From assembly GCA_013425335.1 (NCBI GenBank), contig JACCLG010000050.1, positions 17,532-81,531 on the forward strand: 64,000 nt of DNA, written 5' to 3'. Made by a program: the position numbers and the translations under genes. The first letter of the stretch is position 1; each line of letters starts with the position of its first letter. The notes below the pieces were generated by a model that was not told where the DNA came from, did no database searches, and saw only the letters and a list, made by a program, of their open reading frames with translations. Below, in pieces: positions 28,941 through 41,956 of this stretch. Source of the stretch: Candidatus Micrarchaeota archaeon (GTDB taxonomy: Archaea > Micrarchaeota > Micrarchaeia > Burarchaeales > Fermentimicrarchaeaceae).

Positions 28941-29407
28941 CCGGCCATGCCCGCGGTGAAAACATCAAAAGCATCAAAAGCAGGAAAATAAACCGCAGGT
29001 AAATCGGCAGCAAATCAGGTAAAATCGGTAAAAACATCAAAAAACTCGCTAATTTCAGTTCGGGTATAAAACAACTCGTATTCATTCGGTGAAACCGGCT
29101 GCTTCCTGCTGTATGCTGCCGTCTGAGCAGCATGTTTTTCAGTTTCACTGTTTCTGCCTCTCCGAAGAGAAACTGACTTAAACCTGCTCAGGCGTAAACC
29201 GCTTTTTCTGGCAGGAAATTCAGGAATCAGGAGTGAAACTGGCGGTTTTTCAGCTTTTTCTCATTTTCAGAGGTGCTGGACTGCGTCGTTTTCCGGCTTA
29301 TCCCGGTTTAGGCGCCTGTTTCACAGGCATTTTTGAATGGTATATTATACCTATTTTATTCTTGTCGGTCTACAGAAATCCAAGCGTTATTGTAAGTGTG
29401 ATTACTG
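28941..29407. repeat. ORF-free region with iteron-like short direct/inverted repeats
   Basis: 'gtgaaac(c/t)gg' at about 29090 and 29233 (direct) and about 29139 (inverted); 'catcaaaag' x2; 'aaatcgg' x3; inverted repeat gctgc...gcagc at about 29105-29130; composition atypical for the flanking DNA. Confidence 0.5.
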
Positions 29408-29623
29408 TTAAAAATTTACTCTTAATCTGTTTCCAAATTCGGAAATGAAAGCCAAGAATATACCAAATATCATAATAAAAAATCCTATGATATTACCAAT
29501 TATATTACCTGCTGTTAACATATAACCTAAGCCAACTAGGGATAGAATTGCTCCGATAAATGCAAGAGGTTTATCTGTTGCTAGCTTAACGATTATGTCA
29601 ACTTTATTATCTGACATAGTCAA
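29408..29623 (-). CDS. Small membrane protein (71 aa, 2 TM)
   Basis: Hydrophobic helices; lies in the AT-rich island. Confidence 0.35.
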   Translation of the reverse strand: MTMSDNKVDIIVKLATDKPLAFIGAILSLVGLGYMLTAGNIIGNIIGFFIMIFGIFLAFISEFGNRLRVNF

Positions 29624-29645
29624 TCACCTCTTTAATCAATAATAA

Positions 29646-30563
29646 CTATGAATTGCCAAATCCTTTCCACAGCACACCACATGTTGGAAAGCTAGTAAAA
29701 TTGATTGCAGTAGACTGTTCTGCCGGACTAAGTGGAAATTCCCACTTTGAGATTACCCTTAAATGTCTAATTTCATGTGGTTCTAAATCAATGCTCATAT
29801 ATTGCTTTCCATTAAGCATTATTACTACAGCTAAACCTGTATCCTTATCACAGTAACTATATCCACTCTGCGGTTCTATAACGTAACTCCTTATCTCCTC
29901 ATCTTCAAAATTTTTTATCGTATAGTCCGAAACTGCATAAATCGCATTATCTTGTAACCTAAAAAAACCTATTTTTACAGCAGGAATATTAGTTTCGCAT
30001 ACATTTATAGAAGTGGACTGGTAATTCCTTCCAATAAGAGTAGCATCACAACTCATCTTGTTTAAGTCGACCTCCTGCCCGATATACACGTCCAAACTTG
30101 TGCTTTTAACTTTGAAAGCGTTAGTGTCAATATCAAGATATATTGTATTAGTCATATTATTTCCACCGTTTGAATAATACCAGCTTTCTTGTGTAAACAC
30201 TTTCACATAAGGGTTCTCTTCTACTCTTAGGAGACTGAGATAAGCATTCCCAGGAAGCTCTACGGAAAAATTATCCGACCTCTCAAAAAAAGGTAGATTG
30301 GGAAATAATGCCGTATCGATATCGTAAGTAAGTTTCGAAATTTTGAAATATTCTATATCGTACCCCCCATTCCCATTTGCCACCGGTCCTCCGTATAAAT
30401 ACATGGGTTGGCTTTTGACATCAGAAATTCTAGGTGAAAAAATCGGTTGGATTGCTTGATTGGATATAAAATAAGCCAAGACGGTTATAACTAAACCCAC
30501 AATGGCCTTAATAATTAAACTTTGCGTATCCATTTTCTTTGCCACAAGTTCACCATTATACAT
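29646..30563 (-). CDS. Membrane-anchored/secreted hypothetical protein (305 aa)
   Basis: N-terminal TM then a beta-rich Asn/Tyr-rich domain; AT-rich codon usage. Confidence 0.5.
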   Translation of the reverse strand: MYNGELVAKKMDTQSLIIKAIVGLVITVLAYFISNQAIQPIFSPRISDVKSQPMYLYGGPVANGNGGYDIEYFKISKLTYDIDTALFPNLPFFERSDNFSVELPGNAYLSLLRVEENPYVKVFTQESWYYSNGGNNMTNTIYLDIDTNAFKVKSTSLDVYIGQEVDLNKMSCDATLIGRNYQSTSINVCETNIPAVKIGFFRLQDNAIYAVSDYTIKNFEDEEIRSYVIEPQSGYSYCDKDTGLAVVIMLNGKQYMSIDLEPHEIRHLRVISKWEFPLSPAEQSTAINFTSFPTCGVLWKGFGNS

Positions 30564-30661
30564 TTTATCTCTGTAAGATTATAAATCTACTCCATCACTG
30601 GAAAGGTACCCCTTCGTGAAGTTTATAAACCATTAATACGAAGGATAATATAGGTGGATTT

Positions 30662-31507
30662 GTGGCAGAAGAGAAAGCAAAAATTACGGGCCTACTAAAT
30701 AAACTCTACGTAAAAGACTGCATAGAATTCATGCGTGAGTTACCGGAAAAATGTATAGACGTTATTGTAACTTCACCTCCTTATAACATCGGCAAAGATT
30801 ATTCAGTTTATAATGATGACAAGACTAGACAGGGATACCTTGACTGGATGGAAAAGGTAGCGGTTGGAAGTAAAAGAGTTCTAAAGGAGAATGGTTCTTT
30901 CTTCTTAAATGTTGGTGGCAAACCATCTGATCTTGTAATACCGTATGATGTTGAAAACCGTTTTAGGAGGCATTTTATTTTGCAGAATGATATAATCTGG
31001 GTTAAATCTATAGCAATAACTAAAGAAGACGTAGGGAAGAGTAATGGACTGGACCATGATGTTTTGGTAGGGCACTATAAACCGATCCAAAGCAGCCGTT
31101 TTCTGAATAATTGCCACGAGAACATCTTTCACTTTACAAAAGAGGGTAAAACAAGCCTCCATAAACTTTCTATCGGTGTCCCATATCAATACAAATCAAA
31201 TATAGCACGCTGGGGCAAAAAACAGGATATACGAGACAGAGGCGATGTTTGGTTTATCCCTTATGAGACGATACAGGAGCGTCGTCCGCATCCTGCTGTT
31301 TTTCCAAAGAAACTCCCTCTATTATGTGTAAAATTACATGGAGTTAAGAAGGATATGATTGTTTATGACCCATTTGTTGGAATAGGAACTACTGCTTTAG
31401 CTTGTTTAGACTTAAAAGTAAACTACTTAGGTACTGATGTAGACCATAATTACATCAAAATTGCAAATGAAAGAATTGAGGAAATAAAGGCACAATTAAA
31501 GCTTTGA
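30662..31507 (+). CDS. DNA methyltransferase, beta-class amino-MTase (N4-cytosine or N6-adenine)
   Basis: Motif IV TSPPY near the N-terminus and motif I DPFVGIGTT near the C-terminus, which is the circularly permuted beta-class order. Confidence 0.8.
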   Translation: MAEEKAKITGLLNKLYVKDCIEFMRELPEKCIDVIVTSPPYNIGKDYSVYNDDKTRQGYLDWMEKVAVGSKRVLKENGSFFLNVGGKPSDLVIPYDVENRFRRHFILQNDIIWVKSIAITKEDVGKSNGLDHDVLVGHYKPIQSSRFLNNCHENIFHFTKEGKTSLHKLSIGVPYQYKSNIARWGKKQDIRDRGDVWFIPYETIQERRPHPAVFPKKLPLLCVKLHGVKKDMIVYDPFVGIGTTALACLDLKVNYLGTDVDHNYIKIANERIEEIKAQLKL

Positions 31508-32002
31508 TTGTGATCCAGCCATACTGCTTAAAAGTTGGAGTGCTTTTTCACGAGAAATTTTTGTAGTAGTGCCCAATTCTCCAGCTTTCCACCACGAACG
31601 TACTTGTTCTGAAGTTATTATCCAAAAAGGAACATCCGGGAATTTTTCTATGTCCGACACTATATATCCCTTAATCTCTTTGAGTTTTACTAAAAATCCT
31701 TCTTCCTCAAAAGAACGCTTCGAACCAACCATATAACTGGGGGAAAAATATATTCCACCCTTGCTAATACTTCTGACTTCCCACTTTCCACCTTCTCTAT
31801 CTAAGAGGTCAAAACCTGCTCCTTCACTTGAGGCAAGCTTCCCATGCAAAACCTCATAAGCAAGCCGTCTTTCCAATAGAAATGAAACACGGCGCCCATC
31901 TGTAAAATAAAGGCGAACATCATCCTTGCCTATTTTTAATGCCTTAGCAATTTCTTCAATATTCCATTTGAGATAACCTTCGATTTTGCCCATGACAATC
32001 AC
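31496..32002 (-). CDS. Putative restriction endonuclease (PD-(D/E)xK-like) partnered with the methyltransferase
   Basis: 168 aa; candidate catalytic pattern FDLLD...EVRS; tail-to-tail 12-nt overlap with the MTase gene, typical of type II R-M pairs. Confidence 0.35.
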   Translation of the reverse strand: MIVMGKIEGYLKWNIEEIAKALKIGKDDVRLYFTDGRRVSFLLERRLAYEVLHGKLASSEGAGFDLLDREGGKWEVRSISKGGIYFSPSYMVGSKRSFEEEGFLVKLKEIKGYIVSDIEKFPDVPFWIITSEQVRSWWKAGELGTTTKISREKALQLLSSMAGSQSKL

Positions 32003-32010
32003 CGAGAGAC

Positions 32011-33975
32011 TCAGCTTTTATCTTTAAAATCATCGATTAAGCCATTTATATTACTAAACAGAGAGTCATTTATAACACTAAGCAGTTTTGTGAAAGACCG
32101 TTTTAAGTTATTTGGATAATTGGTAAAGTCATATCCAATTTGTTTAGCTAATTCTGAGCTTTCTTTCTTTTTTTGTTTATCATTTGATATATGCGTCAGA
32201 TGTCTACGGATACCCCTAAGCAATTTAACAGAATTTTCAATCTCATTTTGCTGCTTTTCACTTGCGTTTAGATACTTCGAAAATTCTTTTAAAGCTTCAA
32301 CATCCCCGCTGCAACTTTTGCCTAACTTATCTTCTATTTCTTTTTTATTTAAGTTTTCAATAATTAATTGATTTAGTAAATCAACACCCTGATCAAATTC
32401 TAAAGGCGTTTGTACCTCTTTCGGGAAATAAACAATTTTAACCACTTTATCAGTCGGTATATCATGAAATAATCCAAAATTAAGTTTATTGTTACTAATA
32501 CCATTTGTCTCATTAATGCGTCCGATTATTGAAATCAGCGTCAATTCAGTAAGCGTACTACTTACCAGATCCTTACTATTCCCTACTAGTCTTTTTGAAA
32601 GCTCATCAGTTGCCTTGTTAATTTCTCTGAATGTTAGGCATTGACCATACTTTTTCTCACTAAATTCTTCATCTCTAATACTTTCGAGTTTAGTTTCAAA
32701 ATCCTCTTTCGATGGTTTTCTTTTGCGAATTAAAGCAAGAATAACTGGCAGTATACTAAGAAATACATTTATGCCCTGTCTTTTTGTAATTACATAGTTA
32801 TCCCTATCGTTCCACTGCTTTTCAAAACAACTCTTTATAGCGCTTAGATAGTTGATTAGTATTACCACTATCTCTTTTTCATCACGAGACTTCAATTCCC
32901 TCTCCATAAGTTTTGGAAGAACATAAAATTGACTATTACCAATCCACTTCTTAGTCTGCCATTCATGTATCCTAATTTTTTTATATAGAGGTGAATTCGG
33001 CATTTCATTTAATCTATGGACTACCACAGCAGTTCTTCCTTTAGTATCATCTATTTTCTGCAATCTAAATAATAACCAATTACGCAAAGTTGCGGGGACT
33101 CTTTTTTGATTATCATTAATCTCTGTGAAAAGAGATATTTTCCTAGTAGATTCTAACTCTTCGAAGCCAGTAATAATAATCTTAAATTTATCAGGGGTTT
33201 TTTGCTTCTTGCATTCTTTAAAACCGTATAATCTATGCTGACCGTCTATTACTTCAACCGATTGCTCTACTAATGGAATTTCGAGATAGCCTTGTTCAAA
33301 TACTCCTTTCTTAGTTGTTGTAAAATTAACTCGTTTAGTGAAGTTGACTATAATGTTATTCGCAAGAATAGCTTTTGGTTTGTCAAGAAAAGAACCTATC
33401 TCTTTTAGTCTTTTTGGTTTTAAATATCGTTGATAACCTAGCGGCGTATTCTCTTCATCTCGGTCAACTTTGGCGATTTTGAGTAAATCTGTCGCTCTCA
33501 TAGCAAATATGTACATTTTTTCTTTTCCTTGCTTGACTCGAATCGATGGTACTGATATTAACTGAGGAGGGATTTCAAAAAATTTCTCTATCAAAATTGA
33601 TGCATAATCTTTCTTGTAAAGTTTCGAATTTTGCCAATAACTCCCCAACATAGGTTCGTCCCATATTATTATTCCTCTACTTTTTGCCCATTCTTTATTT
33701 TTTGAGCTAACCCTCTTAGAATCGAAAACTAAAAGGCCACATATCTTGTTTATTTTCTTTCTATCTAATTCGTGGACTATGCCATCTAATTCCCGAACAC
33801 AAGTTTTAACATTACGCCCCTTAGCCATCGTACATTCAATTATTAGTTTAAACTCTCTGAAACTTGCAACCACATCAATTTCTTTATCAGCTAACTCAAT
33901 TTTGGTTTTTACTTTAAATCCTGCATTTCTAAAAAGTTTGGCTACCTTTTTTTCAGTTCGATTAAGTCTTGGCAT
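32011..33975 (-). CDS. Fusion protein: N-terminal Mrr-like PD-(D/E)xK domain + DGQHR (DndB-like, ParB/Srx superfamily) domain
   Basis: N-terminal restriction-endonuclease-like fold (IDVVA...IIECT...K); DGQHR motif EVIDGQHRLYGF; 654 aa. Confidence 0.6.
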   Translation of the reverse strand: MPRLNRTEKKVAKLFRNAGFKVKTKIELADKEIDVVASFREFKLIIECTMAKGRNVKTCVRELDGIVHELDRKKINKICGLLVFDSKRVSSKNKEWAKSRGIIIWDEPMLGSYWQNSKLYKKDYASILIEKFFEIPPQLISVPSIRVKQGKEKMYIFAMRATDLLKIAKVDRDEENTPLGYQRYLKPKRLKEIGSFLDKPKAILANNIIVNFTKRVNFTTTKKGVFEQGYLEIPLVEQSVEVIDGQHRLYGFKECKKQKTPDKFKIIITGFEELESTRKISLFTEINDNQKRVPATLRNWLLFRLQKIDDTKGRTAVVVHRLNEMPNSPLYKKIRIHEWQTKKWIGNSQFYVLPKLMERELKSRDEKEIVVILINYLSAIKSCFEKQWNDRDNYVITKRQGINVFLSILPVILALIRKRKPSKEDFETKLESIRDEEFSEKKYGQCLTFREINKATDELSKRLVGNSKDLVSSTLTELTLISIIGRINETNGISNNKLNFGLFHDIPTDKVVKIVYFPKEVQTPLEFDQGVDLLNQLIIENLNKKEIEDKLGKSCSGDVEALKEFSKYLNASEKQQNEIENSVKLLRGIRRHLTHISNDKQKKKESSELAKQIGYDFTNYPNNLKRSFTKLLSVINDSLFSNINGLIDDFKDKS

Positions 33976-34063
33976 ACACTCCCTCGGATTACAGCAATAC
34001 GATTATTATTTGTGTTGTATATTAAGCTTTTTATTACGATACTTGCTTCATAACATATAACGT

Positions 34064-34324
34064 TCACACGCTCACGTACGGAGCATATTCATCCATGTGA
34101 CTGAATTTCACCCTATCCTGCTGTTCTTTCTCCAGTTCCATTTTTATGTGTGACTCCACGAAGCTCTTCACGTAAGGATGTTCGTATAACACTATAACTT
34201 CATTAAATCCGTCCTCAAAATCTTTCTTTATATTAGTCAGGGCGTTCTTGTATTCAAAAGTAACTTCAACTGCAATTCTTTTCTTATGGGGGCTTTTTTC
34301 AGTAGGAAATACCGCAACATCCAC
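34064..34324 (-). CDS. Hypothetical protein (86 aa)
   Basis: ORF only. Confidence 0.3.
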   Translation of the reverse strand: MDVAVFPTEKSPHKKRIAVEVTFEYKNALTNIKKDFEDGFNEVIVLYEHPYVKSFVESHIKMELEKEQQDRVKFSHMDEYAPYVSV

Positions 34325-34348
34325 TCTCCCGCCTCTTCCTCTCGAACA

Positions 34349-35050
34349 TTACTCCTCCAGCTCCTTAACCACCTTCACTATCCCCTCAAACCTCTCAATT
34401 GTGAAATCCGCAACATTCTCCTCCTCGGAATACCTCTGGCATCCATACTTTGCCAGGCAGGTTAGGAGCCCTGCTTTCTTTGCTCCAATTATGTCTCTCT
34501 CAGGATTATCTCCAACAAACAAAGCCTCCCTCGGAGACACTCCCAGCAGGTGAACCACCCTGAGGAAAGGCTGTTTCGACGGCTTCAACTCCTTTGTATC
34601 CTCATATGTCACAACAACGTCAAAAAGATGGTCCAGTCCTGAGAGGATGAGCCTCTGCCACGCCTTCTCCCTGGGCGCATCTGAGACTATCCCAAGCTTG
34701 TAGCTCTGCTTAAGCTTCTTCAGAGTGCCCACAACTTTCGGCCTCGGTCTCAGCAAAGCGTATTTCTTCTTCTCATATGCGATTATTGCAGCCTGCTTCG
34801 CATGCTCGTGCAGATGCGGGCCCAGAACATAGCCTGAGAGAAGCTCCTCAAACGTTCTCTGGTACTCTATTCCTCTTGTTTCGTATATTGCGAATATCTT
34901 CCCGTAAAGCTCCCTCTCCCCTGCCTTCACCCCTGCTTCCCGGATGGCTTTGGCTGCAGCAAGCGCGCTCTCCCTCTTGAAGCCTGAGAAGTCAAGCAAT
35001 GTGTTGTCCAGGTCAAAAACAATTGCCTTAATCATATAAAATCCACTCAT
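34349..35050 (-). CDS. HAD-superfamily hydrolase (subfamily IA)
   Basis: Motif I IVFDLDNTL, motif III K, motif IV GDNPERDI; GC-rich host-like composition. Confidence 0.75.
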   Translation of the reverse strand: MSGFYMIKAIVFDLDNTLLDFSGFKRESALAAAKAIREAGVKAGERELYGKIFAIYETRGIEYQRTFEELLSGYVLGPHLHEHAKQAAIIAYEKKKYALLRPRPKVVGTLKKLKQSYKLGIVSDAPREKAWQRLILSGLDHLFDVVVTYEDTKELKPSKQPFLRVVHLLGVSPREALFVGDNPERDIIGAKKAGLLTCLAKYGCQRYSEEENVADFTIERFEGIVKVVKELEE

Positions 35051-35064
35051 ACCAAATATTCTTA

Positions 35065-35085
35065 GGTATATTAAGATTGCTTTGG
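35065..35085 (-). promoter_or_regulatory. 21-nt promoter cassette 'c(c)aaagcaatcttaatatac' (TATA 'ttaatata'), copy A, upstream of the HAD hydrolase gene
   Basis: Identical 19-21-mer also at 39498-39518 and 40009-40029, each 15-55 nt upstream of a minus-strand start codon. Confidence 0.55.
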
Positions 35086-35096
35086 CTTTAATGTAT

Positions 35097-36089
35097 TCAG
35101 CTATCCCTATTCATATCTTTCCCAAATTCTTTAGATACTAATTCACGAAACGTTGTCTTAAATGAAACTTGGTGCTTTGGTCCACCCATAGTAATCTCCC
35201 TAAAAAGTTTTCGTGGCTCACCATCGATAACATATACTTTATGCTCCCAATTTAGACTAGAATCCCATCCTTCTTCTTTTACCCATTTTATATACTCGTT
35301 TTTAGCTTTGCAACCTCTCCAGCTTTCTTTAGCAGTTTCGATTTTCGTTTCTTTAACTTTACAGATATGAGTTATTGCACTGGGTAAACCATTTTTTCTA
35401 TGCGTTTCGATTACTGCTATATACAAAGCATCAGCAGCACCAGTATTTTGTACTATTATATTTTTTTCTTTTAATAGTTTGAAAAACATAGGCTTAGTAT
35501 ATACCGCAAGTACTTCAACAACATCTTCAATACGTTGTTCATCCATCTTTTTTATACTATTCATCATATCACCTATCCATACATTAAACATCTTCGTCAT
35601 TTTCTTTGTTGATTTTTCTGATAAGTCTATTAAATACTGCCAAGAATATGTTAAAAATTCTGTTTTTTCTAATTTCAACTCGCTTTGGATACTCTCAGTC
35701 TCTTCAGAAGTCAGATCTCGTTTTGTCACATATACCAAACGTATATTTGGAAAGTAGGCTCTTTGTTTGAGCAGGAAATCTGCATAATTCTTAAGCTGAG
35801 AAACGTATTCAGGTTTGTGTTCAATAATTTTTGATTCTATAATCACCATAAACTCATTTTGCTTGCGTATCATCAGATCAGTTATTCCATAAGGTTCAAT
35901 AGATTCTTGAGTTCTTATTCTAACGTCTCTGATTTTGGAATTGGGTAACTTAAGCTCTTTTAAGAATTCAGTAAAAACCTGTTGATCACTATGCAGAATG
36001 AAACCAAAAGAAATAGATAAACGATTTTCTGTTCGAGGATTTTTCGGCAATCTCGCTTGCACAAAGTCAAATATATTATCAATATTCAC
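35097..36089 (-). CDS. PD-(D/E)xK nuclease-family protein (330 aa)
   Basis: Motif ITDLMI...VIIESKI (D...ExK); AT-rich. Confidence 0.45.
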   Translation of the reverse strand: MNIDNIFDFVQARLPKNPRTENRLSISFGFILHSDQQVFTEFLKELKLPNSKIRDVRIRTQESIEPYGITDLMIRKQNEFMVIIESKIIEHKPEYVSQLKNYADFLLKQRAYFPNIRLVYVTKRDLTSEETESIQSELKLEKTEFLTYSWQYLIDLSEKSTKKMTKMFNVWIGDMMNSIKKMDEQRIEDVVEVLAVYTKPMFFKLLKEKNIIVQNTGAADALYIAVIETHRKNGLPSAITHICKVKETKIETAKESWRGCKAKNEYIKWVKEEGWDSSLNWEHKVYVIDGEPRKLFREITMGGPKHQVSFKTTFRELVSKEFGKDMNRDS

Positions 36090-36146: not shown

Positions 36147-37490
36147 TCAAATCTCGCACTTCCTTCCCTTTTCAGTAACCTCCGTATTCCTGCAAGCAAC
36201 ACCAAACATCCCAGGATTCATCGTATGTACTGGGAAAACCTTCTTGGCATCTATCTCCTTCACAATCTCAAAAATCTCGCTTTTGCTTGCGTGCCCGCTT
36301 GCGTGGAGCTGGTGCCTCCTCATCCCAAAATGCTCCAGCCAGTTCTCCAGCACATCATCAGAAACCTGCGACATCGGGTCCTCCTCGAAAGGCTCGCTCA
36401 TTGAATGGATGCACTCCCCCCCGGAAGGCCTCACATCCACCAGCTCAGTCAACTGCCAGAAGTCCAGCTCGAATATCAGCTCCTTCTGGTTGTCATGAAT
36501 ATACCCAGAATCAACGCAGTCGTCCATCATCGGCTTCTCCCATTTCTTGTATGTTTTCATCTTCCTGCAGTAAACCTCAATATGCTTATCCTTGAAAGGG
36601 TCAGAAAGCCCCAGAGGGTCGTCCTTCAAAGACTGAAGAAGATGGGCGGTTTTCATGGATGTCACCAGCTTCCTCCCGCTTTCCTTCGCAATATCATGGA
36701 AAGTCCTGAACCTGTCCAAGTCTTTCGGGTATCTCATTGCAAGCACAAGCCTGTCAGATTCATGGATAACTTTCTTGCTTTCCTCCTTCACAGACTCCTC
36801 GGAGTAATTCTTCCTTTTTTCCACGTCAAATACCCTGGTTCCTTCTATTATGAGTGCCTCAGGCTCAGCTTCCTTTGCCCTCTGGACGAACTCACGGGTC
36901 ATGTCGCCTCTTGGGCCGTGCTGCCTCAAGTCTCCGGTATAAGCAACCACCCCTTCAGATGTTTCAACAAGGAAGCCGTATGCGCCTGGAACGGAATGGT
37001 CGACATGGATTGGAGTTACCTTCAAATCCCCCACGGAAATCTCCTGCCCGCTCCTGAATTGCCTTATCTCGGCCCCTTCTGCGAAGTATCTGTTGCTCGT
37101 GGTCTCAGCATTGGAGTCAAGTATCTTCTTGGCAGTTTCTCCCATGTAGATAGGTATCCCTGGATGCAGATATTCCAGATGAGCCACATGGTCAAAATGG
37201 GCGTGGGAGATGAAAACCCCGTCAAACCCCGGTTCAGAGGCCTTCAGGTCAGTATGCTCAATTGCCTCATCTGAGTAAAGCCCGTTCAACTTCGGAATAA
37301 GCCCAAATTCGAAGTAATCCCTGAGCCCGAACCTGTCCCTTGGGGAGAGATAAGACTCTGGGACGAAATAATCATCCAGCAGGGAGAAGGACTGCCCGAA
37401 GTCCAGGAATATCCTTGTCTTCCTGTCCTCAAGCAGTATCTTGTTTCCGCCTATCTCCTTTACTCCGCCGAAGAATGTAAGAGATGTCAT
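36147..37490 (-). CDS. rnj: RNase J-like metallo-beta-lactamase / beta-CASP ribonuclease
   Basis: N-terminus FFGGVKEIGGNKILLE; MBL motif HAHFDH; beta-CASP region; about 447 aa as in archaeal RNase J. Confidence 0.75.
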   Translation of the reverse strand: MTSLTFFGGVKEIGGNKILLEDRKTRIFLDFGQSFSLLDDYFVPESYLSPRDRFGLRDYFEFGLIPKLNGLYSDEAIEHTDLKASEPGFDGVFISHAHFDHVAHLEYLHPGIPIYMGETAKKILDSNAETTSNRYFAEGAEIRQFRSGQEISVGDLKVTPIHVDHSVPGAYGFLVETSEGVVAYTGDLRQHGPRGDMTREFVQRAKEAEPEALIIEGTRVFDVEKRKNYSEESVKEESKKVIHESDRLVLAMRYPKDLDRFRTFHDIAKESGRKLVTSMKTAHLLQSLKDDPLGLSDPFKDKHIEVYCRKMKTYKKWEKPMMDDCVDSGYIHDNQKELIFELDFWQLTELVDVRPSGGECIHSMSEPFEEDPMSQVSDDVLENWLEHFGMRRHQLHASGHASKSEIFEIVKEIDAKKVFPVHTMNPGMFGVACRNTEVTEKGRKCEI

Positions 37491-38116
37491 TTATATCCCT
37501 CCAGCAGAAGCCTGCCCCAGAACGTCTGGGAGTACTTCTTTTCATCCTGGTTGAATGATACAAACCCAATGCTCTCAAGGTTGTTCAAATGGCGGAAAAT
37601 GCGGGGGTAATCCTTCCTATCCCCCTTCAAATCATCCACAATCTCTTTCAGCTTCCTGTCCTCTTTCACTGCTTCCAGAACCTTCTTCTGCGAGCTGCTC
37701 AGGACAAATGGAGCCGATATAGGGGGCAGCAGATCAGTTTTGAACCTATCAGCCTTCCTTATTGTTACAATGAGGTGCATTTTCCTCTTGACAAAGAAGG
37801 TTGCGTAGAGCAAAGCCAGCGCGATGTGCCTCTCCCCTCCCCCTATGTGGATGTAAAGCTCGTCATCTTTGCCTGTTGAATTGAGGATGCGGATGCACTC
37901 TCTGACTGCCTTCTCAAACGGTTCGTCTGTTATGAACTCCTCTCTGGTGCTTATCAATGTCTTTATCCTTTCGATTGTATCCCTGACCTTCTCCCTCTCC
38001 GAGCGGTCTTTTGAGTGAATCACAATGGCCCTGTCTGCCCCCGTTTTAACCGCATTCCTTAATGACTCTTCAAAAACCTTGGGGGTAAACCCCACCGACA
38101 TGACGTGAATCCGCAT
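37487..38116 (-). CDS. Csa3-like CARF + winged-HTH regulator
   Basis: N-terminal CARF-like Rossmann start MRIHVMSVGFTPKVF and HIGGGERHIALALL segment; C-terminal wHTH; 4-nt ATGA overlap with the RNase J-like gene. Confidence 0.5.
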   Translation of the reverse strand: MRIHVMSVGFTPKVFEESLRNAVKTGADRAIVIHSKDRSEREKVRDTIERIKTLISTREEFITDEPFEKAVRECIRILNSTGKDDELYIHIGGGERHIALALLYATFFVKRKMHLIVTIRKADRFKTDLLPPISAPFVLSSSQKKVLEAVKEDRKLKEIVDDLKGDRKDYPRIFRHLNNLESIGFVSFNQDEKKYSQTFWGRLLLEGYK

Positions 38117-38908: not shown

Positions 38909-39475
38909 TCATCCAAATTTAAAGCTTGTTATGACGCTCTCAAAGACTGGTTTATATCTATCATAATCAGTTGGGCGAGTTGAGCAGGTGATTGTATAAA
39001 GATGCTCATTTCCTATCAAACTTACTTGCTGGACTTTGTAGTCCTGTCCTCCTCTGTTATAAGTTATGACGAACTCATGCCCCGGCATTCCGTTTAATGT
39101 CCTGTTCTCAAAAGATACAATGGTAATGCTGTTGTTTTTATAGAGTTCTATACTAGAAGCTCCCATATTATTTAAAAACTCACTAAAAGTTTCGTAGACT
39201 GGCACTGGCTGCTCTTCCCGGAGTATGCTGCATTTTGAACTGAAACCGGCTTCTTGAGGGGAAGTGAAGGTAACTTTCGCACCTCCGCTCTCTTCAACCT
39301 GCCACCCATCTGGGTAGATAAGCGAAAAACCGTAGTCATCGGACCCCCAGCAGTTTGTTACCCCCCTCTTCTTGCATTGTTCAGATTGAGTTCCTTTAGG
39401 TTGCCCCCCAGAACATCCGTAAATCAATAAGGTGAATAGCAACATGGCAATAATCTTCTTTTTCACTTTTACCAC
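38909..39475 (-). CDS. Putative lipoprotein (188 aa)
   Basis: Signal peptide with lipobox-like LIYGC; downstream of promoter cassette copy B. Confidence 0.5.
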   Translation of the reverse strand: MVKVKKKIIAMLLFTLLIYGCSGGQPKGTQSEQCKKRGVTNCWGSDDYGFSLIYPDGWQVEESGGAKVTFTSPQEAGFSSKCSILREEQPVPVYETFSEFLNNMGASSIELYKNNSITIVSFENRTLNGMPGHEFVITYNRGGQDYKVQQVSLIGNEHLYTITCSTRPTDYDRYKPVFESVITSFKFG

Positions 39476-39497: not shown

Positions 39498-39518
39498 AGT
39501 ATATTAAGATTGCTTTGG
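39498..39518 (-). promoter_or_regulatory. 21-nt promoter cassette, copy B
   Basis: 'agtatattaagattgctttgg' identical to copies A and C; about 25 nt upstream of the lipoprotein start. Confidence 0.55.
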
Positions 39519-39598: not shown

Positions 39599-39958
39599 CT
39601 ATCCCTTCTTCTTGGGGACTGGCAGAGGTTTTGCATAGGAAGCCAGTAGCTTTATCGCCCGCTCTAAGGCATACTTCACTTCTCTCTCATTCTTGCAGCC
39701 TGTACATATTACTTTACCGTTCTTGAAGAGCAGAAGAGATGCCTTTGGATCTTTGAGCTTGAGTATTGCACCTGGGAACTGCTCGGGCTCATACTCTATG
39801 TTCCTGACTTTCTTACCAAGAACATAAAGGTCAAGTTCCACTCCCAAATTGGCTGAAGCTACTATGTTCTCTATCTTGAATGATGGATCAATTGTAAGTT
39901 TCTTTGTCAATGAAACACCTTCTCTGCCCCCTTCCAGCCCATTTCTACTCAAAACCAC
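39599..39958 (-). CDS. Single-repeat TATA-binding-protein-like protein (half-size TBP paralog)
   Basis: 119 aa; one TBP repeat with hallmark KIENIVASANLGVELDL...YEPEQFPGAILKL...LLLFKNGKVICTG; in-frame stop 4 nt upstream of GTG start and next gene begins at 40016, so no second repeat is encoded. Confidence 0.6.
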   Translation of the reverse strand: MVLSRNGLEGGREGVSLTKKLTIDPSFKIENIVASANLGVELDLYVLGKKVRNIEYEPEQFPGAILKLKDPKASLLLFKNGKVICTGCKNEREVKYALERAIKLLASYAKPLPVPKKKG

Positions 39959-40008: not shown

Positions 40009-40029
40009 TAGTATATTAAGATTGCTTTG
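40009..40029 (-). promoter_or_regulatory. 21-nt promoter cassette, copy C, upstream of the TBP-like gene
   Basis: 'tagtatattaagattgctttga'. Confidence 0.5.
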
Positions 40030-41956
40030 AATTTTCAGTAGGAAGCTCCGGATATTCCAGCAGCACTACCTTCGGGATATCCTCAAGCTTGGCGATGGCT
40101 TTCTTCTCCTCGGGAGCCAGCTTCACGTATTTCTCAAGCAGCTTCTTCCCCTCCTCTGCATTCCCTTCTGCCTCTATAGCAAGCAACTCCTTGGAAAGGG
40201 AGGCAACTCCCTCCTCGAATTTTTTCCTGTCAATCTTGTATGTCCCGTCAGCATTCCTCACAATGCCTCCATTCTCAACCAAGTAGTTGAACTCCAGGAT
40301 ATTTGCATCCACATGAGCGTCCGCCCCAAGCCCTGCCCTGAGGAAGACGAACTTATCCGAGAGGGCAGATGTATAGACAAGCTCCCTCTCCCTTTCCGTT
40401 ATGGCGCCTTTCTCGACAAGATACGGGACATGATACAGGCCGACTATGTCCGCCTTTGCTTCCTCTATTGCTGCATAAACGCCCCCCAAAGCCCTGCGCG
40501 TGTTCATCTCCGGCCCTGCAAGGGATTCCTTGAGCCCTCCCAGCGGGTGGCTTTCCTCATGGAGCAGGAATGCCAGGAAATTCCCGTAGATGAGGTCCTC
40601 CTTGCTCATGGATGAAATCGTGCTTTTGTCAATTAGTGCATCTATTATTGGAACAGACCTTGGCCGGCTTTTCTCAGCTACTGCATTGTAGAGCATTGTC
40701 GTCCTTGCCCCGTGTTCTTTTATCACCTCATCGTCATTCGGAAGGCTGAAGGCCACAGTGCTTATCGAGCCGTGTGCTTCTCCAGCATTGTATAAAGTAT
40801 CCGCAACCACTGTAGGAGCCATTTTCCTGTTTGGTTTCTTTGCCTCGTCAGTTACCGGCAAACGCTTCTCAAGCTCAGGCATCAGCGCATTTATGCCTTG
40901 CACCTTGCTTGTCTTCTCCTCATCTGTGTAATAGATTATTATCTCGGCATCCCTCCTTACCGCTACTCCCCCGTCAAGATATGTCTCAACATCCCCAACA
41001 ACTATGTTCAGCTTGGAGCGGACTTTCAGCCACGCAATGTCGCTCTCTCTGCAATTTTCCGTCATGACATCCTTGCTCCTCTTAAAGAGGTATTCCTTGA
41101 GTGTAGAGTCGTCGGTGAGCTGGCCTGCTTTGAACAGTGCATCCTTTATTATTCCTGTCTCTTCCTTGAAGTATTCCGCATAAGGTATGAATTCAACAGG
41201 TTTCCCCCCCTTGAAAACCACTATATTTGTGGGTGAGTTGAGCCCTTTCCTGACTCTTTCCCTCTCGCCTTCAGGAAATTCCATAATTAGTTTCTCCCTG
41301 AACTGCTTTCCCTCGTCACCTTTCTTGAAGAACTCGCGAGGAATGTCGGATAACCCTCCGCTGCCGATGTAAAGCCCGCCTTCAACAGGCCTCTGGTCAA
41401 AAATAGGAGTGAAAAGCTTCAAATCCATGCCAGACATGAACTTTCTCCAGAGTCTCTCTTTTGACTTGAGAGGCACCTTATTCTCAATCACTTCGAGTAT
41501 CTCTTTTCCCTTGAATTCCGGCACGAGTCTCTTGTCGCCGTTGGCTGCGTCAAAAATCGAGTGGTTCACCCTGGCGAGTTTTACATAAGAGGAGATTCTC
41601 TTAGCAAGCTCATCATCCGCGTACTTCTTTATCTCCTCAAGGAATGTTACAATTTCTGTTGTTCCCGGTGCTTTCTGCTTTGTGAATACGCTCTCAACAG
41701 GCCCGATTGCCTTCCACAGCTCGCGGACTGTTGCCATTTCAGACTTGCTGAGCCTGCTCCAGTCAAATGCGAGCTTCACGACTGCATACTCCTTCGGTAG
41801 CGCTATCTCTTCCTTCTCTCCCATCGGCTTGACGCGCGAAAACTCGTTTTCCCTCGGCACTTCTGCCTTGCCATACGCCATATGAACACCCATAAAATTG
41901 CTCATTTCAGATTTATAAACCCTTAAGAAGCTATGAAGAATTGTAACCATGGTCAC
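40016..41956 (-). CDS. Zn-dependent metallopeptidase, M49 (dipeptidyl-peptidase III)-like
   Basis: HEESHPLGG (HExxH) followed about 30 aa later by EEAKAD, resembling the M49 second motif EExxAE; 646 aa; N-terminal start uncertain. Confidence 0.5.
   Translation of the reverse strand: MTMVTILHSFLRVYKSEMSNFMGVHMAYGKAEVPRENEFSRVKPMGEKEEIALPKEYAVVKLAFDWSRLSKSEMATVRELWKAIGPVESVFTKQKAPGTTEIVTFLEEIKKYADDELAKRISSYVKLARVNHSIFDAANGDKRLVPEFKGKEILEVIENKVPLKSKERLWRKFMSGMDLKLFTPIFDQRPVEGGLYIGSGGLSDIPREFFKKGDEGKQFREKLIMEFPEGERERVRKGLNSPTNIVVFKGGKPVEFIPYAEYFKEETGIIKDALFKAGQLTDDSTLKEYLFKRSKDVMTENCRESDIAWLKVRSKLNIVVGDVETYLDGGVAVRRDAEIIIYYTDEEKTSKVQGINALMPELEKRLPVTDEAKKPNRKMAPTVVADTLYNAGEAHGSISTVAFSLPNDDEVIKEHGARTTMLYNAVAEKSRPRSVPIIDALIDKSTISSMSKEDLIYGNFLAFLLHEESHPLGGLKESLAGPEMNTRRALGGVYAAIEEAKADIVGLYHVPYLVEKGAITERERELVYTSALSDKFVFLRAGLGADAHVDANILEFNYLVENGGIVRNADGTYKIDRKKFEEGVASLSKELLAIEAEGNAEEGKKLLEKYVKLAPEEKKAIAKLEDIPKVVLLEYPELPTENSKQS

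What the first reader, a model, noticed from the sequence alone, without database searches (positions are those of the whole stretch)
39599..39958. Stand-alone single-repeat TATA-binding protein paralog (half-TBP)
This 119-aa protein carries one nearly canonical TBP repeat (KIENIVASANLGVELDL ... EYEPEQFPGAILKL ... LLLFKNGKVICTGCK). Canonical archaeal and eukaryotic TBPs are about 180 aa and consist of two such repeats forming one saddle. Here an in-frame stop lies 4 nt upstream of the GTG start, and the neighbouring gene begins at 40016, so no second repeat is encoded. A single-repeat TBP would have to homodimerise to form a DNA-binding saddle. This is the architecture proposed for the ancestral TBP. 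Its promoter is one of three identical 21-nt cassettes (see the cassette finding).
Basis: partly seen in the sequence, partly recalled or inferred. Interest (0 to 1): 0.75.

Follow-up and report, generated by a model that had tools for sequence, protein, structure and literature searches.

The report
Conserved single-repeat TBP in Micrarchaeota
A tiny DPANN archaeon carries a well-conserved, independently expressed gene for only one half of the TATA-binding protein; it is a shortened copy of the normal two-half factor that probably pairs up to bind promoters, so it is a new example of a known oddity and not a relic of the ancestral form.

Summary
The ORF is real and encodes exactly one bona fide TBP repeat: Pfam TBP 98 bits, PDB TBPs at E=1e-41, and an AF2 model matching only TBP structures. 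No second repeat exists anywhere in the 64-kb window. The true start is probably the TTG at 39910, giving 103 aa rather than 119. It is not an assembly artefact or a pseudogene. At least 14 near-identical proteins of 101-118 aa exist in independent assemblies, including the closed genome of Ca. Fermentimicrarchaeum limneticum. They share the same boundaries and Shine-Dalgarno sequence, and most share the promoter. dN/dS is about 0.2. Some genomes carry two copies 1-3 kb apart. The repeat sits inside the radiation of two-repeat Micrarchaeota TBPs and carries the C-terminal-repeat signature, so it is secondarily derived, not ancestral. All DNA-intercalating and TFB-stirrup residues are kept, and Micrarchaeota TBPs are unusually symmetric. 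This makes a homodimeric (or paralogue-heterodimeric) saddle the most likely mechanism; that is inferred, not shown. I could not determine whether these genomes also keep a canonical two-repeat TBP. Single-repeat TBPs are already known from Halobacterium and Thermococcales, so this is a new member of a known kind.

The parts
39599..39910 (-). Coding sequence of the single-repeat TBP: 103 aa, TTG start at 39910..39908, TAG stop at 39601..39599.
   Evidence: The 103-aa product equals NCBI NYZ79486.1. The start position is conserved as GTG or TTG in 9 other gene copies. dN/dS is 0.1-0.33.
39638..39883 (-). The TBP repeat itself (S1-H1-S2-S3-S4-S5-H2).
   Evidence: Pfam PF00352, residues 26-107 of the 119-aa ORF. 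The AF2 model has pLDDT 87.7, and the model matches TBP chains only, with rmsd 0.8 A to 2z8u.
39911..39958 (-). Most likely this is untranslated 5' leader.
   Evidence: In the relatives this stretch differs in sequence and in frame (G-run indel), or is absent.
39916..39920 (-). Shine-Dalgarno-like AGGTG, 5 nt upstream of the TTG start.
   Evidence: 'AGGTGTTTC[A/G]' followed by GTG or TTG is identical in all 10 copies.
39907..39942 (-). An 11-codon upstream ORF (ATG...TGA) whose stop overlaps the TTG start. Its significance is doubtful.
   Evidence: Read. The same ATG is in frame with the TBP in L009 and in the third frame in L005.
40011..40029 (-). Archaeal promoter cassette CAAAGCAATCTTAATATAC, with TATA-like TTAATATA at 40019..40012. 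The TAA stop of the upstream gene (40018..40016) lies inside it.
   Evidence: There are three exact copies in the window. The same cassette lies upstream of the half-TBP genes in L005-L008 and of many other genes.
40016..41956 (-). Upstream neighbour: a 646-aa protein containing an HEESH motif. It is not functionally linked to the half-TBP.
   Evidence: Only a weak Pfam DUF7897 match. The 68%-identical orthologue in L001 is followed by seryl-tRNA synthetase, not by a TBP.
38909..39475 (-). Downstream neighbour: a PsbP-like lipoprotein driven by its own copy of the cassette (39499-39517).

Best explanation
The gene encodes a functional 103-aa single-repeat TATA-binding protein. It belongs to a small family that is conserved, and sometimes multi-copy, in one Micrarchaeota (DPANN) lineage that includes Ca. 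Fermentimicrarchaeum limneticum. The family arose secondarily from the C-terminal repeat of an ordinary two-repeat Micrarchaeota TBP. It is transcribed from its own BRE/TATA promoter and translated from a TTG or GTG start behind a strong Shine-Dalgarno sequence. Because one repeat is only half a DNA saddle, the protein most likely pairs with itself or with a paralogous half-TBP. Pairing would occur through the central S1 strands to give a symmetric two-repeat saddle that bends TATA DNA and recruits TFB, so the protein would act as an accessory or alternative TBP. Shown here: the gene, the single repeat, its conservation, purifying selection, derivation from a C-type repeat, and retention of DNA- and TFB-contact residues. 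Inferred: dimerisation, DNA binding and the accessory role.
For: One canonical TBP repeat and nothing else. The model has the TBP fold, and all 44 significant PDB matches are TBPs. There are 14 distinct proteins of 101-118 aa, 84-90% identical, in NCBI, ENA, JGI and Logan data, one of them from a closed 1,178,830-bp genome. Further copies occur in L005-L009, L011 and L021. Start position and Shine-Dalgarno sequence are conserved in all copies, and the promoter cassette in L005-L008. Pairwise dN/dS is 0.1-0.33. Derived origin: the best hits are 186-208-aa Micrarchaeota TBPs at up to 74-78% identity. The clade groups with C-type repeats in most bootstraps and has the C state at 3 of 3 discriminating columns. 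Function: residues that align with yeast TBP N159, V161, F190, P191, F207 and T215, and the acidic stirrup EYEPEQFPG, are invariant across the family (the residue roles come from published TBP-DNA and TBP-TFIIB structures, from my own knowledge). Dimer plausibility: full-length Micrarchaeota TBPs have 59-94% identity between their two repeats, against 42-55% in three crystallised archaeal TBPs. Their inter-repeat interface is therefore already almost homodimeric. Accessory role: full-length TBPs are more conserved than their neighbours (93% against about 80%; 76% against 43-61%). The half-TBP is equally or less conserved than its neighbours (90-93% against 95-96%). None of the half-TBP copies sits at the L21e-Rpb4-DUF655 locus where every full-length Micrarchaeota TBP I examined lies.
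Against: I found no full-length TBP in about 260 kb of DNA from this lineage (window, L005-L029), nor among the named top hits, so 'accessory' is not demonstrated. The family is shallow (at least 84% identity), so invariance of contact residues has limited weight. The bootstrap for clade monophyly is only 54% on 78 columns.
Confidence: 0.6

Rival explanations
1. Replacement: in this lineage the canonical two-repeat TBP has been lost. The single-repeat proteins, as homodimers or as heterodimers of paralogues, are then the only TBP and serve all promoters.
For: No two-repeat TBP appears in the 64-kb window or in about 200 kb of related loci. None of 20 inspected full-length TBP clusters holds a protein from the half-TBP genomes. 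The copies are multiple, strongly promoted and under purifying selection. All DNA and TFB contact residues are kept.
Against: The DNA sampled is a minority of a genome of about 1 Mb. No archaeon is known to lack a bipartite TBP (my own knowledge). The half-TBP evolves no more slowly than its neighbours, unlike essential full-length TBPs. No copy occupies the canonical TBP locus.
Confidence: 0.18
2. Regulatory decoy: the half-TBP does not form a productive saddle. Instead it titrates TFB through its stirrup, or caps the DNA-binding face of the full-length TBP, and so acts as a negative regulator.
For: The TFB-binding stirrup is invariant. The non-ATG start and the leader with an upstream ORF suggest controlled, limited translation. 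Amino-acid changes cluster in helix H1 and the C-terminal tail.
Against: The DNA-intercalating Phe pair and the minor-groove residues are also invariant, which a pure TFB decoy would not need. The promoter is the lineage's strongest consensus.
Confidence: 0.15
3. Cargo of a mobile element or genomic island: the half-TBP is carried by an integrated element and redirects host RNA polymerase to element genes that bear the shared promoter cassette.
For: The gene sits in different genomic contexts in different genomes. The three window cassettes all lie within 5 kb of it, and cassettes cluster around half-TBP genes in L006, L009 and L011. A low-GC defence island lies next to it. L006 has an integrase 7 kb away. 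Haloarchaeal viruses do encode TBPs.
Against: No relative was found in 2.9 million IMG/VR viral contigs. Cassette-driven genes are ordinary housekeeping-type genes (HAD hydrolase, RMMBL nuclease, lipoprotein). The F. limneticum copy has no cassette. No element boundaries or repeats were seen.
Confidence: 0.05
4. Relic of the ancestral single-repeat TBP that preceded the duplication, or alternatively a truncated pseudogene or assembly artefact.
For: It has the single-repeat architecture.
Against: It nests inside Micrarchaeota two-repeat TBPs with the C-repeat signature. It is only 40-47% identical to other archaeal TBP repeats but 74-78% identical to those of its own phylum. It is conserved in many assemblies with dN/dS of about 0.2.
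Confidence: 0.02

Closest known systems
Two-repeat TBPs of Micrarchaeota (for example P0001, 195 aa, GCA_053535515.1)
   Same: Repeat sequence is 74-78% identical. They share the same DNA and TFB contact residues, the ICTGCK motif and a similar C-terminal tail.
   Different: They have two repeats in one chain. Their gene lies next to L21e-Rpb4-DUF655. The protein here has one repeat and lies elsewhere.
Halobacterium single-TBP-domain protein TbpA and similar haloarchaeal cases (Brindefalk et al. 2013, PMC3597702; Coker and DasSarma 2007, PMC2121645)
   Same: A single repeat that clusters with the full-length TBPs of its own clade, that is, a secondarily derived half-TBP.
   Different: They are haloarchaeal and plasmid-borne, in genomes with six tbp genes. 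The single-repeat ORF I inspected on H. salinarum plasmid PHS2 is an N-terminal repeat whose C-terminal repeat lies about 550 bp downstream, so it is a disrupted gene. I did not establish that this ORF is TbpA. The gene here is a C-type repeat with its own promoter, has no partner repeat, and is conserved across genomes.
Thermococcales monopartite TBP-domain proteins (about 82-136 aa; Brindefalk et al. 2013, Table 3)
   Same: Stand-alone proteins with a single TBP domain, found in archaea that also have a normal TBP.
   Different: They are highly diverged from TBP and form their own sequence cluster. The protein here is a near-canonical TBP repeat.
TBP-like domains of RNase HIII and DNA glycosylases
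   Same: The helix-grip TBP-domain fold, present as a single copy.
   Different: Those domains are fused to catalytic domains and are not detectable as PF00352. In the fold search OGG1 appears only at E=0.55 and no RNase HIII appears.

Membership tests
TBP (Pfam PF00352 repeat; archaeal/eukaryotic TATA-binding protein) | Sequence match to the TBP repeat profile above the curated threshold | tested here: met
   98.4 bits against a cut-off of 22.9, covering profile positions 1-84 of 85. PDB TBPs match at E=2e-41.
TBP (Pfam PF00352 repeat; archaeal/eukaryotic TATA-binding protein) | Two tandem repeats in one polypeptide that together form the saddle | tested here: not met
   Only one matched stretch. 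No second repeat in any frame of the window. NCBIfam full-length TBP models score 66-95 bits against cut-offs of 181-347.
TBP (Pfam PF00352 repeat; archaeal/eukaryotic TATA-binding protein) | S1-H1-S2-S3-S4-S5-H2 fold of a TBP repeat | tested here: met
   AF2 pLDDT 87.7 with the expected order of elements. Foldseek: 44 of 44 significant PDB hits are TBPs, with rmsd 0.8 A over 81 residues to 2z8u.
TBP (Pfam PF00352 repeat; archaeal/eukaryotic TATA-binding protein) | DNA-kinking Phe pair and minor-groove Asn/Val/Thr contacts, plus the acidic TFB/TFIIB-binding stirrup | tested here: met
   By alignment, N31, V33, F61, P62, F78, T86 and EYEPEQFPG (119-aa numbering) are present and invariant in the family. 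DNA or TFB binding itself was not tested.
TBP (Pfam PF00352 repeat; archaeal/eukaryotic TATA-binding protein) | Genomic position of Micrarchaeota TBP, divergent from L21e-Rpb4-DUF655 | tested here: not met
   The full-length loci L004 and L030-L034 all show this position. Neither the window nor the half-TBP loci do.
Secondarily derived single-repeat TBPs (Halobacterium TbpA type) | Single repeat that clusters with the full-length TBPs of the same clade | tested here: met
   74-78% identity to Micrarchaeota TBP repeats, and it nests among them.
Secondarily derived single-repeat TBPs (Halobacterium TbpA type) | Co-exists with one or more full-length TBPs in the same genome | not testable with these tools
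Cluster look-ups and synteny searches did not reach the genomes concerned.
Thermococcales monopartite TBP-domain proteins | Strong divergence from TBP (a separate sequence cluster; roughly 10-40% positives) | tested here: not met
   The protein here is a high-scoring canonical TBP repeat. The family description comes from PMC3597702.
RNase HIII / DNA-glycosylase TBP-like domains | TBP-like domain fused to a catalytic domain, with no PF00352 match | tested here: not met
   The protein is stand-alone at 103 aa. PF00352 matches, and no RNase HIII appears in the fold search.

The most novel reading that the evidence does not exclude
The Fermentimicrarchaeum-related Micrarchaeota may have dispensed with the covalently linked two-repeat TBP altogether. 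They would then run all transcription initiation with dimers of one or several single-repeat TBP paralogues. That would be a living example of the homodimeric state postulated for the ancestor of TBP, reached here by reversal. It would have been made possible by the unusually high internal symmetry of Micrarchaeota TBPs.
Probability: 0.18. Interest if true: 0.9.

Novelty: new member of a known kind. Interest (0 to 1): 0.5.

Why it matters
TBP is the textbook case of a protein made by duplication and fusion of one domain. The idea that a homodimeric half-TBP came first has never had a near-canonical natural test object. This family offers one: a conserved, expressed-looking, almost canonical single repeat, in a phylum whose full-length TBPs are themselves nearly symmetric. 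It could be used to test directly whether a half-TBP homodimer binds TATA DNA, how promoter orientation is set without an N/C asymmetry, and whether combinations of paralogous halves diversify promoter choice. If the closed F. limneticum genome turns out to lack a bipartite TBP, the finding would be of high interest. If it has one, this is a further accessory TBP paralogue like those of haloarchaea.

Tried and rejected
- **Frameshifted or nearby second repeat.** Rejected by tblastn and by a six-frame HMM search.
- **Assembly artefact or pseudogene.** Rejected by recurrence in independent assemblies and by dN/dS.
- **RNase HIII-type fold.** Rejected.
- **Virus origin.** No IMG/VR relatives. In the phage collection only haloarchaeal tailed viruses have TBP genes, and those are 179-204 aa, not single-repeat.
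- **Synteny.** The only GTDB relative of the 646-aa neighbour (L001) has no TBP downstream.
- **Recent horizontal spread of a 420-bp promoter-plus-gene cassette.** I considered this because the gene is 90-94% identical in DNA while its flanks do not align. I set it aside because neighbouring genes in L005, L006 and L009 are 95-96% identical in protein, so those genomes are simply close relatives.
- **Attempts to find a full-length TBP in the same genomes. All were inconclusive.**
  - Exact look-ups of the window proteins were not on record.
  - Accession prefixes in 20 full-length clusters gave no match.
  - A DUF655 synteny search showed nothing from this lineage in the top 120 hits.
  - Look-ups of P0106 and P0068, chosen for similar contig sizes, led to other lineages without the cassette.
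  - A metagenome scan with the lineage-specific cassette returned 20 contigs holding two more half-TBPs and no full-length TBP.
- **Short-query search with the H2 and tail region.** It returned nothing because of the word index.
- **Literature.** No paper in the held library describes single-repeat TBPs in Micrarchaeota or DPANN.

Full report
**Observation**

The minus-strand ORF at 39599..39958 exists and contains the quoted motifs. Pfam assigns exactly one TBP repeat: PF00352, 98.4 bits against a gathering score of 22.9, covering profile positions 1-84 of 85. NCBIfam full-length TBP models match at only half length and far below their cut-offs. Against the PDB the best matches are archaeal TBPs (M. 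jannaschii 2z8u at E=2e-41, S. acidocaldarius 1mp9, P. woesei 1pcz), and both of their repeats align to the one repeat here.

A tblastn of the protein and a maximum-sensitivity HMM search of every open frame of the window found no other TBP-like stretch. There is therefore no frameshifted, split or nearby second repeat in 64 kb. An AlphaFold2 model has mean pLDDT 87.7 and the element order S1-H1-S2-S3-S4-S5-H2. It matches TBP chains only: 44 of 44 significant hits, with rmsd 0.8 A to 2z8u. The next hits are noise, and OGG1 appears at E=0.55.

**Gene model**

The exact 119-aa product is not in the 15-billion-protein collection. The 103-aa version starting 16 codons later is present, as NCBI NYZ79486.1 from a Candidatus Micrarchaeota MAG on a 91,208-bp contig.

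In ten gene copies from different assemblies, the codon at this position is always GTG or TTG. It is always preceded by AGGTGTTTC[A/G], a Shine-Dalgarno-like AGGTG with a 5-nt spacer. The sequence further upstream differs or shifts frame through an indel in a G-run. I therefore place the start at the TTG at 39910..39908.

The promoter is the cassette CAAAGCAATCTTAATATAC at 40029..40011, and the TAA stop of the upstream gene lies inside its TATA-like TTAATATA. The bacterial-type promoter and terminator scan is uninformative here.

**A conserved family, not an accident**

The 90%-identity cluster of the 103-aa protein has 14 members of 101-118 aa from NCBI, ENA, JGI and Logan. One of them is QLJ53181.1 from the closed 1,178,830-bp genome of Ca. 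Fermentimicrarchaeum limneticum (NCBI lineage Nanobdellati; Microcaldota; Fermentimicrarchaeales). Loci fetched around six members, and two further copies found through the promoter cassette, all show a stand-alone single repeat with the same ends.

Two assemblies (L006, L008) carry two copies 1-3 kb apart, one behind arginyl-tRNA synthetase and one in front of a CxxCxxCC protein. Four C-terminal tail types exist, which suggests several paralogue groups.

Pairwise dN/dS is 0.1-0.33, and replacements are concentrated in helix H1 and the tail. Gene DNA is 90-94% identical between loci whose flanks do not align. However, neighbouring genes of L005, L006 and L009 are 95-96% identical in protein, so these are simply close relatives with rearranged neighbourhoods. 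The only relative of the 646-aa upstream gene among GTDB species representatives (68% identical) has no TBP behind it.

**Origin**

The best database hits are ordinary 186-208-aa TBPs of Micrarchaeota, up to 74% identical over the whole repeat and 78% over the trimmed core. In these proteins N repeats have other N repeats as nearest neighbours, and C repeats other C repeats (234 of 240). Three alignment columns separate the two repeat types, and the half-TBP family has the C-type residue at all three.

In neighbour-joining trees the family is monophyletic (54% bootstrap on 78 columns). Its sister group is another single-repeat protein (P0148) or C-type repeats in most replicates, and N-type repeats in about 4%. 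The half-TBP is only 40-47% identical to the repeats of M. jannaschii, Sulfolobus and Pyrococcus TBPs. It is therefore a recent derivative of the C-terminal repeat of a two-repeat TBP, not a survivor of the pre-duplication state.

An exhaustive search of 1.84 billion representatives found further complete-looking single-repeat proteins (P0148 109 aa, P0241 105 aa, P0245 117 aa, P0274 97 aa, P0251 152 aa). Each is closest to different full-length repeats, so such truncations seem to have arisen repeatedly in this phylum.

**Mechanism**

Residues aligning with the DNA-kinking phenylalanines and minor-groove contacts of yeast TBP (N159, V161, F190, P191, F207, T215) and with the acidic stirrup that binds TFB/TFIIB (EYEPEQFPG) are present and invariant. 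The roles of these residues come from published structures, from my own knowledge.

One repeat is half a saddle, so DNA binding requires pairing. The full-length TBPs of this phylum have 59-94% identity between their two repeats (median 71.5% in a set biased towards symmetric proteins). The figure is 42-55% in three crystallised archaeal TBPs. Their inter-repeat interface is thus already nearly homotypic, and the central S1 strand (FKIENIVASA) is the same in both repeats and in the half-TBP. A homodimer, or a heterodimer of paralogous halves, is therefore the most economical mechanism.

**Is there also a normal TBP?**

This is the key open point. Every full-length Micrarchaeota TBP I looked at lies divergently next to L21e-Rpb4-DUF655. 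No half-TBP copy does, and that locus is not in the window.

Full-length TBPs are much more conserved than their neighbours: 93% against about 80%, and 76% against 43-61%. The half-TBP is no more conserved than its neighbours: 90-93% against 95-96%. This fits an accessory paralogue better than a sole essential factor.

On the other side, I found no two-repeat TBP in about 260 kb of this lineage's DNA, nor among 20 inspected full-length clusters. All routes to the rest of the genomes failed or were exhausted. I put the replacement scenario at roughly 0.18.

**Known relatives and novelty**

Single-TBP-domain proteins are already described. Halobacterium TbpA clusters with full-length TBPs, and a diverged Thermococcales group exists (Brindefalk et al. 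2013, PMC3597702; Coker and DasSarma 2007, PMC2121645). A single-repeat ORF I inspected on H. salinarum plasmid PHS2 is an N-terminal repeat whose C-terminal repeat lies about 550 bp downstream, that is, a disrupted gene. I did not establish whether this ORF is TbpA.

No paper in the held library mentions single-repeat TBPs in Micrarchaeota or DPANN. The present family differs from the known cases in four ways. It is a C-type repeat with its own promoter, it is conserved across genomes, it is sometimes duplicated, and it occurs in a phylum with unusually symmetric TBPs. It is still the same kind of thing, so I rate it a new member of a known kind, of moderate interest.

Noticed in passing
window 40011-40029, 39499-39517, 35066-35084 (all minus strand); L005-L029: The 19-nt promoter cassette CAAAGCAATCTTAATATAC is a discrete element with unrelated flanks. 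It lies 15-55 nt upstream of the start codons of diverse genes, mostly at leaderless-type spacing. There are 8 copies in 20 kb of L006 and exact copies on 20 JGI contigs. It is absent from the F. limneticum locus and from every full-length-TBP locus. In the window all three copies lie within 5 kb of the half-TBP.
   Followed up: partly
P0001-P0120 (full-length Micrarchaeota TBPs): Identity between the N and C repeats is 59-94% (median 71.5%; 94% in P0025). It is 42-55% in M. jannaschii, S. acidocaldarius and P. woesei TBPs. N and C repeats still behave as separate orthologous sets. The sample is biased towards symmetric proteins by the way it was retrieved.
   Followed up: partly
L006 10001-10309 and 12966-13280; L008 5157-5465 and 6426-6740: Two single-repeat TBP genes lie 1-3 kb apart in the same genome. 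In the tblastn alignments to the window protein they differ at 2 (L008) or 6 (L006) of 101 residues. Each has its own promoter cassette.
   Followed up: partly
P0148, P0241, P0245, P0274, P0251 (representative search): These are other complete-looking single-repeat TBPs of 97-152 aa, 54-79% identical to this one. Some have long lysine-rich N-terminal tails. Each is nearest to different full-length repeats, which suggests repeated independent truncations. Their genomic contexts could not be checked.
   Followed up: partly
P0135 (272 aa), P0136 (376 aa), P0140 (702 aa): These are TBP proteins with three or four repeats. P0135 has three near-identical euryarchaeal-type repeats. P0136 is a head-to-tail double of a eukaryote-type TBP and may be an assembly or gene-call artefact.
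   Followed up: no
window 29000-36000: A low-GC stretch (33-40%, against 45-50% in the flanks). It holds an N6/N4 DNA methylase (30662-31507), a DndB-like protein (32011-33975) and a PD-(D/E)XK nuclease (35097-36089). A Csa3-like protein (37487-38116) and an RMMBL nuclease (36147-37490) follow it. This looks like a defence or variable island next to the half-TBP.
   Followed up: partly
window 39907-39942 (minus strand): An 11-codon upstream ORF in the 5' leader ends with a TGA that overlaps the TTG start (TTGA). An indel in a G-run puts the same ATG in frame with the TBP in L009 and in the third frame in L005, so it is probably not a conserved feature.
   Followed up: yes
window 40016-41956 (minus strand); L001 8155-10116: A 646-aa protein with an HEESH zinc-protease-like motif and only a weak DUF7897 match. 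It has a 68%-identical orthologue in a Micrarchaeales MAG. Its stop codon is embedded in the TATA box of the half-TBP promoter.
   Followed up: no
L037 (H. salinarum R1 plasmid PHS2, NC_010369.1 59507-62752): A TBP gene appears to be interrupted. An N-terminal repeat ORF of 113 aa lies at 1483-1824 and a C-terminal repeat at about 2296-2553, separated by about 550 bp. Neither is annotated in the PLSDB gene table.
   Followed up: partly
L035, L036 (Halorubrum virus HRTV-9, Haloarcula virus HJTV-2): These haloarchaeal tailed viruses encode annotated TBPs of 179 and 204 aa, next to restriction-modification genes. Only one repeat of each is recognisably similar to the query.
   Followed up: no
P0218 (125 aa): A Clp_N-like N-terminus joined to a TBP repeat that is 82% identical to the query. 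It is probably a chimeric assembly.
   Followed up: no
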